From Escherichia coli (GTDB lineage Bacteria; Pseudomonadota; Gammaproteobacteria; Enterobacterales; Enterobacteriaceae): a stretch of DNA of 64,000 nt. The DNA lies in assembly GCF_003334315.1 (NCBI RefSeq), contig NZ_QOWR01000018.1; one strand, given 5' to 3'. The notes beneath the pieces were generated by a model. That model was not told the origin of the DNA and ran no database searches. It saw only the letters and a program-made list of their open reading frames with translations. The position numbers and the translations under genes are program-made. This document shows positions 37,581 to 51,561 of this stretch, in pieces (positions within the stretch are counted from its first letter, which is position 1; each line of letters starts with the position of its first letter).

Positions 37581-37633
37581 CGGCGGCAGAGCAGTCACGG
37601 AGTAAAACTGATACCGCCAAACGTCACCAGAAA
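37581..37633 (-). ncRNA. dicF: DicF small regulatory RNA (ftsZ-targeting) with its 3' T-run
   Basis: Reverse complement reads TTTCTGGTGACGTTTGGCGGTATCAGTTTTACTCCGTGACTGCTCTGCCGCCG followed by TTTTT, matching DicF as recalled; located upstream of dicB. Confidence 0.85.
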
Positions 37634-41003: not shown

Positions 41004-41426
41004 GTGGCAAAAGTTTTTACACAGGAAGAGCGGGAAAAAATTAAAGAGCAGGTGGTCGAACTTGTGCGCCAGAGCGGTCGCGAGACATTACGACAGTTGG
41101 AAGCTAAAACAGGTGCGACAAGATATCTGATGAGCATTCTTGCCAGAGAGCTGGTTGCCAGTGGTTATGTATACAACTCCGGCTACGGGTTATTCCCGTC
41201 TGAACAGGCACGAAAGGACTGGCAAAATGCCCGCAAAAAACTCTCTAGGGCGAAGGTGAAGAAACCCGCTGTGGTTGATCCGGACCTTATCTGGTCACTA
41301 CCTGATGGAGAAATACGTCGCTACGACAGTCGTCTAAACATAATCTGTCGCGAGTGCCGGAAGAGTGAAGCTATGCAGCGTGTACTGGCTTTCTATCAGG
41401 GTAATTTTCAGGAGGCGGTACTGTGA
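41004..41426 (+). CDS. hypothetical protein (140 aa), early region
   Basis: ORF with upstream AGGAGG RBS; no recognizable family. Confidence 0.5.
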   Translation: MAKVFTQEEREKIKEQVVELVRQSGRETLRQLEAKTGATRYLMSILARELVASGYVYNSGYGLFPSEQARKDWQNARKKLSRAKVKKPAVVDPDLIWSLPDGEIRRYDSRLNIICRECRKSEAMQRVLAFYQGNFQEAVL

Positions 41427-42107
41427 GTGAAATTAGCTATCAGGCTTCAATTACCGCTGGCATTCGCATCAAAGGAGAGGAGCATGGAAATAAAACCAGA
41501 GGATTAGTTAAGCAATATCGTTTTATTTCCGATAAAAGAGGATGACCCTCGTAATCAGGTTAATTTTCTTTATGAGCCATCGGAAAGACCATATTGCCAT
41601 CACGCTTCTGTCCGGGTTGACGAAAAAGAGCGTCAGGTCCGCTGTAAAATCTGAGGTGCAGTTGTGGAGCCATTTGACTGGATGCTCTCTGTGGCGAAAA
41701 GAGAAACCAGACTGGCAGATGATGTAAGGCTCTTGCGCCAGGAGGAACGGGAAAGACGAAAAAATATAGAAAAGCTAATTCAGATTGAGCGTAACGGGAA
41801 AGCGCGGATACGCAGGGTGACAAAATCCAGAACTGAATAATTAAATTTAGCACTGTTAAAAATTTAATCCTTAACCGGAGGGATTTCTGCACCCTCAGAA
41901 CATCAGGAGGCCGCCCGAAAGGGCGGTAGTTAAATGCGAAAGTTTAAAATAATTATTGAAACGGGAATAGCCGGTGGAGATTTCGAGGATGAATTCGAAG
42001 TGGATAATGATGCGACGCCTGATGAAATACATGACGAAGCAAAAGATATTTTCTTTAACTACTGCAATTAATCATATCACGAAATAAAAGACGAAGAGGA
42101 AGAACAA

Positions 42108-42284
42108 AATGGCTGATTTTGGTTCAACTAAATACAACGTCGGTTTTGAAGAATGGCATGAACTGTTAATGGACTATGCAGAGTTACGTGGTGGCAGTGC
42201 TGCTGATGCTGAAGCATGGCGTGATGATTATGAAGCAGGAAAAACTCCGGTCGAAGCATATTGTGATGAGTGGGGCGATGAATG
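42108..42284 (+). CDS. hypothetical small acidic protein (58 aa)
   Basis: ATG with AGGAAG RBS; stop overlaps the start of a further small ORF (ATGA coupling). Confidence 0.35.
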
Positions 42285-42767
42285 AGCGAGGTTAATTATC
42301 AGGAAGGGCATGAAACGGCGGGGCAAGCAAAAACAGTGGCATGGCGATATCGCTACGTGAAAAAAAGGCGTTACGGACTTTCAGGGGAAGTAGTGGTCTG
42401 GTGACTGGAAATATGTACCGAAAAAAGAGGATTGTAACGATAGGCCGAACTATGAAATTCAGGCCTTATTCACTGCCCCGCCAGTCCCGGTTACATCAGA
42501 AGAACTGGTTAAAGCTGTGCACTTTTATGAACAACTAAAACGCGAAAATCCACCAGCATCCGGAAACCTGATTACAGGTTCCCAGATAAGGCAATGAGCT
42601 ACCTGGCGCAGAACGGGCTGATAAGTATGGGGAATGTTTTACGATGAATATTTAGACTAAAGAGTTTGTAACGCTATGTAAGTGATTTTTTCTGGTTTAG
42701 ATATTTATATGTCCGGCTAAATTGAGGTGTGTTTAAATGTTATTGCACATTGATTGTAGGGGGAATA

Positions 42768-42947
42768 ATGAAAAACGCATTGCAGTTTTTGTTTGTTGCG
42801 TTCTGGTTGTTCGCATCATGTATGCCCATCATCTTCACAGCAAGGTATATGGAAAAAGTTGATGTTTTGATATTAATATTTGGATATATAAATGCCCTTT
42901 TTTTAGGGGTGTTCATGGCGGTCATGTGCATTGAATACTGGCGGTAA
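42768..42947 (+). CDS. hypothetical small membrane protein (59 aa, two hydrophobic helices)
   Basis: GGGGGAATAATG RBS/start; MKNALQFLFVAFWLFASCMPIIFTARYMEKVDVLILIFGYINALFLGVFMAVMCIEYWR. Confidence 0.45.
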   Translation: MKNALQFLFVAFWLFASCMPIIFTARYMEKVDVLILIFGYINALFLGVFMAVMCIEYWR

Positions 42948-43204
42948 ATACAGCGAACTCCATTGGTTTAGTTGGATATTTACTGTGCTGGACAAAACGG
43001 TTTGCGGGGAAATCTTAGTTAAGTAGAATGACTGCGGGTACTTGAGGCTATCTGCCTCGGGCACGAACACCAACGGCAGGTAGAGAAAAGCCCCAGTTAA
43101 CATTACGCGTCCTGCAAGACGCTTAACATTAATCTGAGGCCAATTTCATGCTAGACACATGTAGGTTAGCCTCTTACGTGCCGAAAGGCAAGGAGAAGCA
43201 GGCT

Positions 43205-43360
43205 ATGAAGCAGCAAAAGGCGATGTTAATCGCCCTGATCGTCATCTGTTTAACCGTCATAGTGACGGCACTGGTAACGAGGAAAGACCTCTGCGAGGTA
43301 CGAATCCGAACCGGCCAGACGGAGGTCGCTGTCTTCACAGCTTACGAACCTGAGGAGTAA
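43205..43360 (+). CDS. hokD: Hok-family type I toxin (HokD/RelF-like, 51 aa)
   Basis: MKQQKAMLIALIVICLTVIVTALVTRKDLCEVRIRTGQTEVAVFTAYEPEE; upstream in-frame leader ORF from 43148 (mok-like). Confidence 0.85.
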   Translation: MKQQKAMLIALIVICLTVIVTALVTRKDLCEVRIRTGQTEVAVFTAYEPEE

Positions 43361-43428
43361 GAGACCCGGCGAGGGAGAAATCCCTCGCCACCTCTGATGT
43401 GGCAGGCATCCTCAACGCACCCGCACTT

Positions 43429-43455
43429 AACCCGCTTCGGCGGGTTTTTGTTTTT
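43429..43455 (+). terminator. rho-independent terminator downstream of hok
   Basis: CCCGC-ttcg-GCGGG hairpin followed by TTTTTGTTTTT. Confidence 0.65.
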
Positions 43456-43576
43456 ATTTTCAACGCGTTTGAAGTTCTGGACGGTGCCGGAATAGAATCA
43501 AAAATACTTAAGTAGCGCGCAGGGATAAGAGGGATGGTCCCTTAAAGGGGAGAGCTAATTATCCGGAAGGATTCTG

Positions 43577-50676: not shown

Positions 50677-51039
50677 ATTAATATTAAATCGGATTATTTT
50701 TAGCGCTGAATGTGAAATTTAAATAAAAAGGACTCTTCCATGAGTCAAAATCCTTGAAATCTTAAGGGTAAGATAAAAGGTCATTAGACAGAATGACACG
50801 TTTTATTAATAAATAAAGCTATTGTTTCATTCGTGTGTTTTTCTTTACAAAAGTAATCCTTGCTATGGTTGGTTAATCATGCGTTAATGGTGTTCTGGTT
50901 TGTTACAAAATTATCTGAAGCAGTCATTGTTATAATTTTATTATTTGTACCTCTTGAGATTTCCTTGTTGGTTTTTCTCTCTGATATTTTTTTTCGGACC
51001 ATTCTGCCCAAGGGCTAACTTCTTCAAAAGGTAATAATG

Positions 51040-51252
51040 ATGTCTAACAAAATGACTGGTTTAGTGAAATGGTTTAACCCTGAAAAAGGTTTTGGTTTCA
51101 TCACGCCGAAAGATGGTAGCAAAGATGTGTTTGTCCATTTCTCAGCTATTCAGAGCAACGATTTCAAAACGTTAACTGAGAATCAGGAAGTCGAATTTGG
51201 TATTGAGAACGGACCTAAAGGCCCCGCGGCTGTTCATGTTGTGGCACTTTGA
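51040..51252 (+). CDS. cold shock protein (CspA family; CspB/CspI-like)
   Basis: [38 protein letters not shown]... RNP1/RNP2 motifs. Confidence 0.9.
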
Positions 51253-51561
51253 GGTAGAAAATATTACAAACCATATTCACTTTAGATGCCCGTGTTGCCA
51301 TGGTTCTCAGTATAGAACATCATCTTTTGATGTTTCTGACAGGAATCCTTTCGGGGCAAAATGTATCTTTTGTAAATCAATGATGATTACATTTGATAAT
51401 ATTTCACAATACTTAAATGTTAGCCGTCTGTCGTTAGATTTAAGAAAGTGAAAATGAAGGCTCCTTCGGGAGCTTTTTTGCTTAGTGTCTAGTCGATGGA
51501 TACTCACATATTACGGTAACATTATGAAAAAAATAATAGTTTTTTTAACTCTGAACCAGCA

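What the first reader, a model, noticed from the sequence alone, without database searches (positions are those of the whole stretch)
41423..43460. Hok-family toxin locus without relBE, preceded by small coupled ORFs and a small membrane protein
A Hok toxin gene with an in-frame leader ORF and a strong terminator is present, but RelB/RelE-like ORFs, which precede hokD in K-12 Qin, are not found in the 1.7 kb upstream. That interval instead holds several very short, translationally coupled ORFs (for example 42108-42284, then an ATGA-overlapping 41-codon ORF) and a 59 aa two-helix membrane protein with a strong RBS. The Sok-type antisense RNA should lie on the minus strand around 43100-43200 but cannot be defined by eye.
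Basis: partly seen in the sequence, partly recalled or inferred. Interest (0 to 1): 0.4.

Follow-up and report, generated by a model that had tools for sequence, protein, structure and literature searches.

The report
Complete hokD toxin-antisense cassette in prophage
This is an ordinary, already-annotated Hok/Sok toxin–antisense-RNA module of a Qin/Rac-like E. coli prophage; lacking relBE is the usual state, and the only new details are one private mutation at a key regulatory base and an unannotated small membrane-protein gene just upstream.

Summary
The hok ORF (43205-43360) encodes a protein identical to K-12 HokD. It has an in-frame mok leader ORF (from 43148) and a terminator (43429-43446). 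No RelB/RelE is encoded anywhere in the 64-kb window.

The framing is inverted. K-12 Qin matches this DNA only from 43191 onward, so K-12 hokD is the truncated, rearranged form. Of 80 phage loci with identical HokD, 75 carry this full leader at ≥80% coverage and 4 carry relBE.

The regulatory parts of a hok/mok/sok module are all recognisable in sequence:
- hok leader (Rfam RF01794, 99.9 bits)
- Sok gene on the minus strand, 43156→~43080, with its promoter at 43191-43163
- ucb/mok-SD pairing
- tac/fbi 5'-3' pairing

The mRNA structure is supported by compensatory changes across 71 loci.

Two extras:
- Base 43040 is A. It is G in all 70 other aligned loci, and the A context is absent from 5,426 E. 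coli genomes. It matches R1 hok G4, where G4A abolishes toxicity, so this copy may be crippled.
- The 59-aa ORF (42768-42947) is probably a real gene that RefSeq does not annotate. A 41%-identical allele of the same length exists, and pN 0.34 is well below pS 0.72.

Most of the "short coupled ORFs" are fragments of genes broken by three nonsense mutations and one frameshift.

The parts
43024..43029 (+). hok promoter -10 hexamer TAGAAT. The -35 is weak (TTTGCG/TTGCGG around 43001-43007).
   Evidence: Read from the sequence. The position matches the -10 upstream of the K-12 hokC and hokB leaders. Homology with other phages' hok cassettes starts at about 43012-43017. Inferred, not shown experimentally.
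43036..43452 (+). Full-length hok mRNA: 5' end by analogy at 43036/43037, 3' end at the terminator T-run.
   Evidence: Rfam RF01794 covers 43036-43210 at 99.9 bits (gathering score 59). The fold is -166 kcal/mol, z = -6.1. On 71 loci, 92% of cells are paired against 34-46% in the slid controls, and 25 pairs change on both sides against 7.2±1.9 in shuffles.
43036..43047 (+). tac element (GGGUACUUGAGG), the 5' partner of fbi and of ucb.
   Evidence: It pairs with 43410-43422 in the minimum-free-energy fold. This helix is 98.4% paired across 71 loci. It corresponds to R1 hok nt 1-11 (PMC9841398).
43040..43040 (+). Private G→A substitution in the tac element, equivalent to R1 hok G4.
   Evidence: It is the only difference from the closest genome across 41400-43500. 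All 70 other aligned loci have G. A 41-nt query with A finds no E. coli genome; with G it finds 2,617. The tac/ucb duplex is -6.3 against -10.7 kcal/mol, and tac/fbi is -14.4 against -21.1. R1 G4A abolishes toxicity (PMC9841398).
43048..43082 (+). 5' leader hairpin (CUAUCUGCC...GGCAGGUAG).
   Evidence: helix 2 is 99.7% paired, with 3 pairs showing compensatory changes.
43090..43096 (+). ucb (anti-SD, GCCCCAG). It sequesters the mok SD in the closed form.
   Evidence: It pairs with 43134-43140 in the fold. It is homologous to R1 A70-C75.
43080..43156 (-). Sok antisense RNA, predicted at about 77 nt: a 5' single-stranded tail complementary to the mok SD and AUG, then a long hairpin and a U-rich tail.
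   Evidence: The ends were mapped from the annotated K-12 sokC and sokB through alignment A1. The fold is -30.4 kcal/mol, z = -5.2. Expression was not tested.
43163..43191 (-). Sok promoter: -35 TTGCCT (43191→43186), 17-nt spacer, -10 TAACCT (43168→43163). The predicted start at 43156 lies 7 nt downstream.
   Evidence: Read from the sequence. The flanking TAGCCTCTTA and CAAGGAGAA motifs are invariant across all 71 hok loci, including the R1-like ones and hokB. The consensus scan did not call it; it matches 7 of 12 positions.
43148..43360 (+). mok leader ORF (70 codons, in frame with hok), with SD GAGG at 43136-43139.
   Evidence: The layout is the same as K-12 mokC/hokC. The mok ATG and SD are nearly invariant in A3.
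43205..43360 (+). hok toxin gene (51 aa, HokD).
   Evidence: 100% identical to K-12 HokD. Pfam PF01848 at 3.5e-23. PGAP annotates it as hokD in identical genomes.
43368..43389 (+). 3' UTR stem-loop, expected to be the protective 3' end of the processed mRNA.
   Evidence: helix 11 is 99% paired, with 5 pairs showing compensatory changes. The role is inferred from R1.
43410..43422 (+). fbi element (CCUCAACGCACCC), which pairs with tac.
43429..43455 (+). Intrinsic terminator: 7-bp stem with 5 G-C pairs, then a T-run.
42768..42947 (+). 59-aa two-helix membrane protein gene, not annotated in RefSeq, inside an AT-rich segment (about 42650-43010).
   Evidence: ORF. Kyte-Doolittle hydropathy is high over roughly residues 5-24 and 29-55 (peaks 2.1-2.7) and low between them. 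GC is 34-39%. The segment is in 1,570 of 5,426 E. coli genomes with nothing annotated under it. A second allele is 59 aa, 41% identical and ungapped. It occurs in 1,045 genomes, also unannotated. Between alleles pS is 0.716 and pN 0.338, and the ORF is 59% identical in DNA against 23-36% for the flanks. No PHROG, NCBIfam, Pfam or PADLOC family matches.
41427..41840 (+). Pseudogene of a 137-aa phage protein (phrog_1621), broken by nonsense changes at 41505 (G→T) and 41654 (C→A). ORFs 41427-41507 and 41664-41840 are its fragments; 41423-41545 overlaps it in another frame.
   Evidence: Intact in phage vB_EcoS-640R1. PGAP flags an 'internal stop'. The 58-aa fragment matches only positions 64-120 of phrog_1621, which is 134 long.
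41934..42071 (+). DUF7167 gene truncated from 60 to 45 aa by a nonsense change (C→A at 42071).
42109..42285 (+). Intact 58-aa phage accessory ORF. It resembles the C-terminal part of phrog_519.
   Evidence: The same length is conserved in two other phages.
42282..42647 (+). Degenerate gene with a 1-nt deletion in an A-run at about 42360. The ATGA-overlapping 40-codon ORF is its first fragment.
   Evidence: PGAP flags it 'frameshifted; internal stop'. The indel was located. There is a weak N-terminal match to phrog_660.

Best explanation
The locus is a hokD-type hok/mok/sok type I toxin-antitoxin cassette. It is about 440 bp long (about 43012-43455) and sits in the accessory (nin-like) region of a Qin/Rac-like lambdoid prophage of E. 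coli.

The mechanism below is inferred from plasmid R1 hok/sok and fitted to the sequence.
1. A weak promoter (-10 at 43024-43029) makes a stable mRNA of about 417 nt.
2. The 5' tac element pairs with the 3' fbi element, and ucb covers the mok Shine-Dalgarno, so the mRNA is inert.
3. Slow 3' trimming back to the stem-loop at 43368-43389 lets tac pair with ucb instead. This frees the mok ribosome-binding site.
4. The unstable antisense Sok RNA (minus strand, 43156→~43080) comes from a constitutive promoter that overlaps the hok SD. It binds the mok initiation region, and the duplex is destroyed.
5. If Sok is no longer made, through loss of the element or transcription shut-off, mok is translated. 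That allows translation of the 51-aa Hok peptide, which depolarises the inner membrane.

In this particular copy a private G→A change at 43040 breaks the central base pair of both tac helices. It probably weakens activation, making this a partly or fully disabled allele.

The relBE genes next to hokD in K-12 are a K-12-type rearrangement that deleted the hok leader and sok. Their absence here is the normal, ancestral arrangement.

The 1.7 kb upstream holds decayed phage accessory genes and one probably genuine small membrane-protein gene of unknown function that RefSeq does not annotate.
For: Identity
- HokD is 100% identical and matches PF01848.
- PGAP calls the gene hokD in genomes that differ from the window at a single base across 41400-43500.
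- The prophage context has integrase, dicB, DicF, replication genes, rem, ydfU and Q.

Leader and Sok
- RF01794 scores 99.9 bits.
- That Rfam model lies on the hok-sense strand, opposite the annotated sokB and sokC in K-12. The hit therefore marks the leader that contains the Sok gene in antisense.
- The Sok ends map through the alignment to sokC and sokB.
- The Sok promoter has a 17-nt spacer and a start 7 nt downstream of the -10. It is embedded in motifs that are invariant in the family.
- The Sok fold has z = -5.2.

mRNA architecture
- The minimum-free-energy fold shows tac/fbi and ucb/SD pairing, z = -6.1.
- On 71 loci, 92% of cells are paired against 34-46% in slid controls. There are 25 doubly changed pairs against 7.2±1.9 in shuffles, and 0 of 500 shuffles reach the observed values.

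relBE
- It is absent from the window.
- K-12 homology starts at 43191.
- 75 of 80 loci carry the full leader at ≥80% coverage, against 4 of 80 with relBE.
- The literature says K-12 hokD lacks canonical components because of rearrangement (PMC12214031).

43040
- The R1 G4A loss of function is reported in PMC9841398.

Upstream genes
Against: - No expression data exist for either RNA. The promoters match the sigma-70 consensus poorly: the Sok promoter matches 7 of 12 positions and the scan did not call it.
- ViennaRNA does not reproduce the tac/ucb refolding of the truncated mRNA for either allele. That refolding step rests on analogy with R1.
- The literature reports that the tested chromosomal hok loci (hokA, hokB, hokC) did not mediate post-segregational killing (bioRxiv 10.1101/2025.08.07.668861). 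'Complete' therefore need not mean 'active', even without the 43040 change.
- The effect of G4A was measured in R1, not in a hokD-type leader.
- The A at 43040 could be a sequencing error.
Confidence: 0.88

Rival explanations
1. The cassette is fully active despite the A at 43040. It works as a prophage-stabilising or abortive-infection module in this strain.
For: All the parts are present. With A, the tac/fbi helix still forms in the fold, with 9.6 expected pairs against 10.9. [quoted passage not shown]
Against: The A removes the central G-C pair of the 7-bp tac/ucb helix, giving -6.3 against -10.7 kcal/mol. In R1 every substitution at this position abolished toxicity, and G4A sharply reduced Hok protein. 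G is invariant in the 70 other loci.
Confidence: 0.35
2. hok here is an orphan toxin with no antisense partner, as in the K-12 relBEF operon.
For: The generic promoter scan found no minus-strand promoter.
Against: The complete leader is present, including the region homologous to the annotated sokB and sokC. The Sok promoter geometry is conserved and sits in motifs that are invariant in the family. The diversity hot-spot falls exactly on the Sok 5' tail (19 alleles in 68 loci), as expected for a working recognition region.
Confidence: 0.03
3. The 59-aa membrane protein and Hok form a functional pair. It could be a second membrane toxin, a Hok modulator or immunity factor, or an exclusion protein co-transcribed into the hok leader.
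For: Both diverged alleles of the ORF lie immediately upstream of hok or a hok remnant. No terminator separates the ORF from the hok promoter. The ORF shows purifying selection.
Against: - Only 13 of 80 hokD phage loci carry the segment. Other phages have unrelated genes at this position, such as HP5 or paa/adfO.
- The second allele stays intact next to a dead hok fragment, so it does not depend on hok.
- It has no similarity to any known toxin or defence family.
- About 15% of members of this allele's protein clusters are frameshifted.
Confidence: 0.12
4. The 59-aa ORF is a chance open frame in AT-rich intergenic DNA, not a gene.
For: - PGAP never annotates it.
- Among six close loci, all 4 substitutions in the ORF are nonsynonymous.
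- Frameshifted and truncated versions are common.
- It has no family match.
Against: - An ungapped 59-aa homologue at 41% identity has the same start and stop positions.
- pN is 0.34 against pS 0.72.
- The ORF is 59% identical in DNA while the flanks are at random levels of 23-36%.
- It has a strong SD, and the common polymorphism makes it GGAGG.
Confidence: 0.1

Closest known systems
hok/sok (parB) of plasmid R1, the model type I toxin-antitoxin system
   Same: - A Hok-family toxin, an upstream mok ORF and an antisense Sok whose promoter overlaps the hok SD region.
- tac/fbi 5'-3' pairing, ucb/mok-SD sequestration, and a 3' stem-loop followed by a terminator.
- The nucleotide positions can be put in register: R1 G4/C5/U6, A70-C75 and GAGG 105-108.
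   Different: - The Hok protein belongs to the HokD/HokC (Gef) branch.
- mok is in frame with hok, as in mokC. In R1 it is out of frame (from my own knowledge).
- The Sok hairpin carries an extra 18-21 nt.
- The cassette sits in a prophage, not a plasmid.
- This copy has the equivalent of the R1 loss-of-function change G4A.
E. coli K-12 hokD (relF) in the relBEF operon of cryptic prophage Qin
   Same: The Hok protein is identical. The downstream genes rem, ydfU and Q are the same, at 94% DNA identity from 43191 onward.
   Different: K-12 lacks everything upstream of 43191: the hok promoter, tac, ucb, the mok start and the sok gene. It has relB-relE there instead, and hokD is co-transcribed with them (PMC3598666). 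The window has the full autonomous cassette and no relBE.
E. coli K-12 hokC/mokC/sokC (gef) and hokB/mokB/sokB
   Same: The leaders align over their full length. The annotated sokC and sokB map onto 43156/43155→43080. mokC is in frame with hokC, as mok is here.
   Different: K-12 hokC has an IS186 insertion that removes the 3' fbi region. The window keeps fbi and the terminator. hokB is only about 65% identical.
Hok cassettes of lambdoid phages, annotated MokW / 'host killer' / gef in mEp460, HannyBb, PPompW and Rac-like phages
   Same: The same cassette at 90-99% identity, with the same boundaries and the same position between the replication genes and rem/Q.
   Different: The gene immediately upstream differs from phage to phage: HP5, paa/adfO, or the 59-aa ORF segment. 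The Sok-tail allele also differs.

Membership tests
hok/mok/sok type I toxin-antitoxin (Hok/Gef family) | Hok/Gef toxin peptide of about 50 aa with an N-terminal transmembrane helix | tested here: met
   Pfam PF01848 at 3.5e-23; 100% identical to HokD.
hok/mok/sok type I toxin-antitoxin (Hok/Gef family) | An upstream overlapping mok ORF with its own SD, through which hok translation is controlled | tested here: met
   ATG at 43148 with GAGG at 43136-43139, in frame with hok as in mokC. The ATG and SD are nearly invariant in 71 loci. Translational coupling itself was not tested.
hok/mok/sok type I toxin-antitoxin (Hok/Gef family) | A conserved, structured hok mRNA leader | tested here: met
   RF01794 scores 99.9 bits against a gathering score of 59. 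The strand of the model was checked on K-12.
hok/mok/sok type I toxin-antitoxin (Hok/Gef family) | A cis-antisense Sok gene with its own promoter, complementary to the mok initiation region | tested here: met
   Homology to the annotated sokB and sokC gives 43156→43080. The promoter is TTGCCT-17-TAACCT. The fold has z = -5.2. Met at the sequence level only; transcription cannot be tested here.
hok/mok/sok type I toxin-antitoxin (Hok/Gef family) | Long-range tac/fbi pairing between the 5' and 3' ends of the mRNA | tested here: met
   Present in the minimum-free-energy fold. The helix is 98.4% paired across 71 loci, with covariation in hokB and the R1-like loci. In the window it carries one A·C mismatch, at 43040.
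hok/mok/sok type I toxin-antitoxin (Hok/Gef family) | ucb sequesters the mok SD in the closed form; tac/ucb pairing in the processed form | tested here: inconclusive
   ucb/SD pairing is predicted and 98% conserved. The tac/ucb duplex is possible but weakened by A43040, at -6.3 against -10.7 kcal/mol. Whole-molecule folding does not predict it for either allele.
hok/mok/sok type I toxin-antitoxin (Hok/Gef family) | 3' processing, RNase III cleavage of the Sok/hok duplex, and killing when Sok decays | not testable with these tools
   Needs RNA and killing assays.
relBEF operon arrangement (K-12 Qin) | relB and relE immediately upstream of hokD and co-transcribed with it | tested here: not met
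   tblastn with RelB and RelE found no hit in 64 kb. K-12 homology begins at 43191.
Small membrane type I toxin (for the 59-aa ORF) | Similarity to a known toxin family, or an overlapping antisense RNA | tested here: not met
   No hit in PHROGs, NCBIfam, Pfam or PADLOC. No Rfam hit in 42650-43010. Toxicity was not tested.

The most novel reading that the evidence does not exclude
The 59-aa two-helix membrane protein belongs to a small-protein family that RefSeq does not annotate. It has two alleles that are 41% identical, found in 1,570 and 1,045 of 5,426 complete E. coli genomes. The gene always lies directly upstream of a hokD-type cassette or its remnant. It might be a functional partner of Hok, such as a membrane-level modulator or immunity factor, or a second effector of the same prophage 'moron'. 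Separately, the G→A change at 43040 would be a natural example of the tac-stem suppressor mutations so far seen only in laboratory selections on R1.
Probability: 0.12. Interest if true: 0.45.

Novelty: already known. Interest (0 to 1): 0.15.

Why it matters
For the main finding, little. hokD-type hok/sok cassettes in lambdoid prophages are annotated and have been surveyed. The absence of relBE is the rule, not a puzzle.

Three points are useful.
- K-12's relBE-hokD junction is the derived state, so K-12 should not be the reference for what precedes hokD.
- Rfam's 'sok' family (RF01794) models the hok-sense strand. A plus-strand hit does not give the Sok gene's strand or its ends.
- Automated annotation misses a conserved 59-aa membrane-protein gene that may be present in up to about half of complete E. 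coli genomes (the two allele counts were not checked for overlap).

The private change at a base known to be essential in R1 shows how such toxin loci may be silenced by single regulatory mutations.

Tried and rejected
- relBE hidden in the interval. tblastn with K-12 RelB and RelE over the whole window found nothing. Family scans of every small ORF found no toxin-antitoxin family.
- Generic sigma-70 scan. It found neither the hok nor the Sok promoter. I relied instead on positional homology with R1, sokB and sokC and on family-wide invariance.
- Thermodynamic folding of the 3'-truncated mRNA. It did not reproduce the published tac/ucb 'open' form for either allele. I used duplex energies instead, and the refolding step stays an inference.
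- Weak Rfam hits below threshold (isrK, rsmX and snoRNA-like matches at 43049-43450 and 42633-42698) were dismissed as chance or terminator look-alikes.
- Coding test for the 59-aa ORF among close relatives. It was uninformative (4 nonsynonymous, 0 synonymous changes among six loci). Only the distant allele settled it.
- PHROGs, NCBIfam, Pfam and PADLOC gave nothing for the 59-aa protein.
- I did not run structure prediction. A two-helix hairpin would not discriminate between functions.
- Reading 41423-41545 (40 aa, phrog_37408) as a real gene. It overlaps, in another frame, the 5' part of a 137-aa gene that is intact in a 97.7%-identical phage, so it is more likely an annotation artefact. This is not settled.
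Full report
**Context**

The window is a Qin/Rac-like lambdoid prophage of E. coli. Region 41400-43500 matches 878 complete E. coli genomes over at least 80% of its length. PGAP annotates the toxin gene there as hokD. The closest genome, NZ_CP019271, shows the gene order: integrase, excisionase, exonuclease, ydfD, dicB, repressors, ydaT-like gene, O-like replication gene, DUF977, small ORFs, hokD, rem, ydfU, Q, lysis genes. Rfam also finds DicF at 37581-37632.

**Checking the observation**

- The ORF at 43205-43360 encodes a 51-aa peptide identical to K-12 HokD. It matches Pfam HOK_GEF at 3.5e-23.
- An ATG at 43148 is in frame, giving a 70-codon leader-plus-hok ORF. K-12 mokC/hokC are annotated with this same layout.
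- A terminator lies at 43429-43446, followed by a T-run.
- tblastn with K-12 RelB and RelE finds nothing in the 64-kb window.
- None of the small ORFs hits a toxin-antitoxin family in PHROGs, NCBIfam or PADLOC.

**Why relBE is absent**

Aligning K-12 Qin to the window shows that homology on the hok side begins at 43191, 14 nt before the hok ATG. It then runs through rem and ydfU at 94% identity. Everything upstream of 43191 is replaced in K-12 by relB-relE. That includes the hok promoter, the mRNA 5' end, the mok start and the sok gene.

K-12 hokD is therefore the truncated form. This agrees with the literature: K-12 hokD was inactivated by rearrangement and lacks canonical components (PMC12214031), and it is co-transcribed as relBEF (PMC3598666).

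Among 80 viral-contig loci that encode an identical HokD, 75 carry the full leader at ≥80% coverage and only 4 have RelB/RelE upstream. Absence of relBE is the norm.

**Anatomy of the cassette**

- *Leader.* Rfam RF01794 ('sok') matches 43036-43210 on the plus strand at 99.9 bits, against a gathering score of 59.
- *Strand of the Rfam model.* On K-12, the same model hits the hokC and hokB strand, opposite the annotated sokC and sokB genes. The family therefore models the hok-mRNA leader, not Sok itself.
- *Sok coordinates.* Mapping the annotated sokC and sokB through an alignment places Sok on the minus strand from 43156/43155 to 43080. That 77-nt RNA folds into a free 5' tail plus a long hairpin and a U-rich end (-30.4 kcal/mol, z = -5.2).
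- *Sok promoter.* It reads TTGCCT (43191→43186), a 17-nt spacer, then TAACCT (43168→43163). The predicted start lies 7 nt downstream. The surrounding motifs TAGCCTCTTA and CAAGGAGAA are invariant in 71 hok loci, including the R1-like ones and hokB.
- *hok promoter.* The -10 (TAGAAT, 43024-43029) lies 6-7 nt upstream of the leader start. The -35 is poor.
- *Full-length mRNA fold.* The mRNA (43036-43455) folds at -166 kcal/mol (z = -6.1). The 5' GGGUACUUGAGG pairs with 3' CCUCAACGCACCC (43410-43422; tac/fbi). GCCCCAG (43090-43096; ucb) pairs with the mok SD region CUGAGGC (43134-43140).
- *Comparative support.* On an alignment of 71 distinct loci (hokD-type loci from phages and a plasmid, plus hokB and two R1-like loci), 92% of cells are paired against 34-46% when partners are slid. 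There are 25 pairs with changes on both sides, against 7.2±1.9 in shuffles, and 0 of 500 shuffles reach the observed values. The tac/fbi helix is 98.4% paired and the 3' stem-loop has five compensatory pairs.
- *Cassette boundaries.* Homology with other phages' cassettes starts at about 43012-43017 and ends at the terminator. The mobile unit is therefore the transcription unit itself.

**Mechanism (inferred from R1; PMC9841398)**

1. The full-length mRNA is inert because tac/fbi locks it and ucb covers the mok SD.
2. 3' trimming releases tac, which then pairs with ucb and frees the mok SD.
3. Sok binds the mok initiation region and triggers degradation of the mRNA.
4. When Sok decays, mok and then hok are translated, and Hok damages the inner membrane.

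Only the sequence and structure elements are shown here. Processing, Sok expression and killing are not.

**A private change at a critical base**

The window reads A at 43040, giving GGGUACUU.

- All 70 other aligned loci read G.
- It is the only difference from the closest genome across 41400-43500.
- A 41-nt query with A finds no complete E. coli genome. The same query with G finds 2,617 genomes.
- In register with R1, this base is R1 G4. The register was checked against the paper's A70/G71/C72 and GAGG 105-108.
- In R1, every substitution at G4, C5 or U6 abolished toxicity, and G4A sharply lowered Hok protein.
- The change costs 6.7 kcal/mol in the full-length fold.
- It reduces the tac/ucb duplex from -10.7 to -6.3 kcal/mol and the tac/fbi duplex from -21.1 to -14.4.

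I judge it more likely than not (about 0.55) that this copy is attenuated. The caveats are that the effect was measured in R1 and that a sequencing error cannot be excluded.

**The upstream 1.7 kb**

I compared it with phage vB_EcoS-640R1, which is 97.7% identical.

| Region | State in the window | Cause |
|---|---|---|
| 41427-41840 | Pseudogene of a 137-aa gene | Nonsense changes at 41505 and 41654 |
| 41934-42071 | DUF7167 gene cut from 60 to 45 aa | Nonsense change at 42071 |
| 42109-42285 | Intact 58-aa ORF | Unchanged |
| 42282-42647 | Degenerate gene, first fragment is the ATGA-overlapping 40-codon ORF | 1-nt deletion near 42360, in a gene PGAP already flags as degenerate |

PGAP marks two of these as pseudogenes. 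PHROG matches cover only parts of longer families. The ATGA overlap is ordinary phage gene packing.

**The 59-aa ORF (42768-42947)**

- It lies in an AT-rich segment (34-39% GC). That segment is present in 1,570 of 5,426 genomes at ≥95% identity and is never annotated.
- Close relatives are uninformative: there are 4 nonsynonymous and 0 synonymous changes among six loci. About 15% of members of this allele's protein clusters are frameshifted.
- An exhaustive protein search found a second allele class, P0037/P0042. It is also 59 aa, 41% identical, and aligns without gaps from start to stop.
- The second allele sits in a prophage remnant at the Rac site: dbpA, ttcA, integrase fragment, the ORF, a hok fragment, uspF, ompN. 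It occurs in 1,045 genomes, again unannotated.
- Between the alleles pS is 0.716 and pN is 0.338. The ORF is 59% identical in DNA while the flanks are at 23-36%.
- That pattern points to a protein-coding gene under constraint. Its function is unknown, and no PHROG, NCBIfam, Pfam or PADLOC family matches.
- Its link to hok is positional only. Other phages carry unrelated genes at this spot, and only 13 of 80 hokD phage loci have the segment.

**Verdict**

This is a known, annotated hokD-type hok/mok/sok cassette in its usual autonomous form. Two modest new details remain: a private G→A change at the tac base that is essential in R1, and a conserved small membrane-protein gene that RefSeq does not annotate.

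Noticed in passing
window 43136-43165: Among 68 hokD-type loci, sequence diversity peaks here, at the Sok 5' tail and mok start. There are 19 alleles in 68 loci, while the rest of the leader and the hok CDS barely vary. Hairpin-preserving changes occur around the mok ATG. This looks like diversification of Sok/hok recognition specificity.
   Followed up: partly
window 43036-43210; L003 1067-1218; L004 902-1054: Rfam RF01794 'sok antitoxin' is modelled on the hok-mRNA sense strand. It is 157 nt long and ends at the hok AUG. On K-12 it hits the strand opposite the annotated sokB and sokC, so a hit gives neither Sok's strand nor its ends.
   Followed up: yes
window 44715: A second private SNP against the closest genome (G→T) turns GAA into TAA. 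It truncates the ydfU/DUF968 gene from 349 to 180 aa. Only 6 SNPs separate the two genomes over about 17 kb, and two of them hit functionally critical sites.
   Followed up: partly
window 43343-43346: hok codon 47 is TAC followed by G (UACG). This is the site where low-level TadA A-to-I editing (Tyr→Cys) is reported for K-12 hokD (PMC12214031). The motif is preserved here.
   Followed up: no
L097 3001-3180 (E. coli, between ttcA and uspF); L096 829-1008: A second allele of the 59-aa membrane ORF, 41% identical. It sits intact in a heavily deleted prophage remnant at the Rac attachment site, next to a dead hok fragment. It is present in 1,045 of 5,426 E. coli genomes, including the type strain, and PGAP does not annotate it.
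   Followed up: partly
window 41423-41545: A 40-aa ORF that PGAP annotates as a hypothetical protein and that matches phrog_37408 over its full length. It overlaps, in another frame, the start of a 137-aa gene that is intact in a close phage. It is probably an annotation artefact that has propagated into a PHROG family.
   Followed up: partly
window 37581-37632 (-) and 50882-51298 (+): A DicF sRNA (72.5 bits) and a cspA-type thermoregulator leader (109.8 bits), consistent with a Qin-like prophage backbone.
   Followed up: no
window 43106-43123: The hokD-type leader carries about 18-21 extra nucleotides in the loop of the Sok terminator hairpin, compared with hokC, hokB, the R1-like loci and the PPompW-type phage cassettes. 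This extends the hairpin and makes Sok about 77 nt rather than 57-59 nt.
   Followed up: partly
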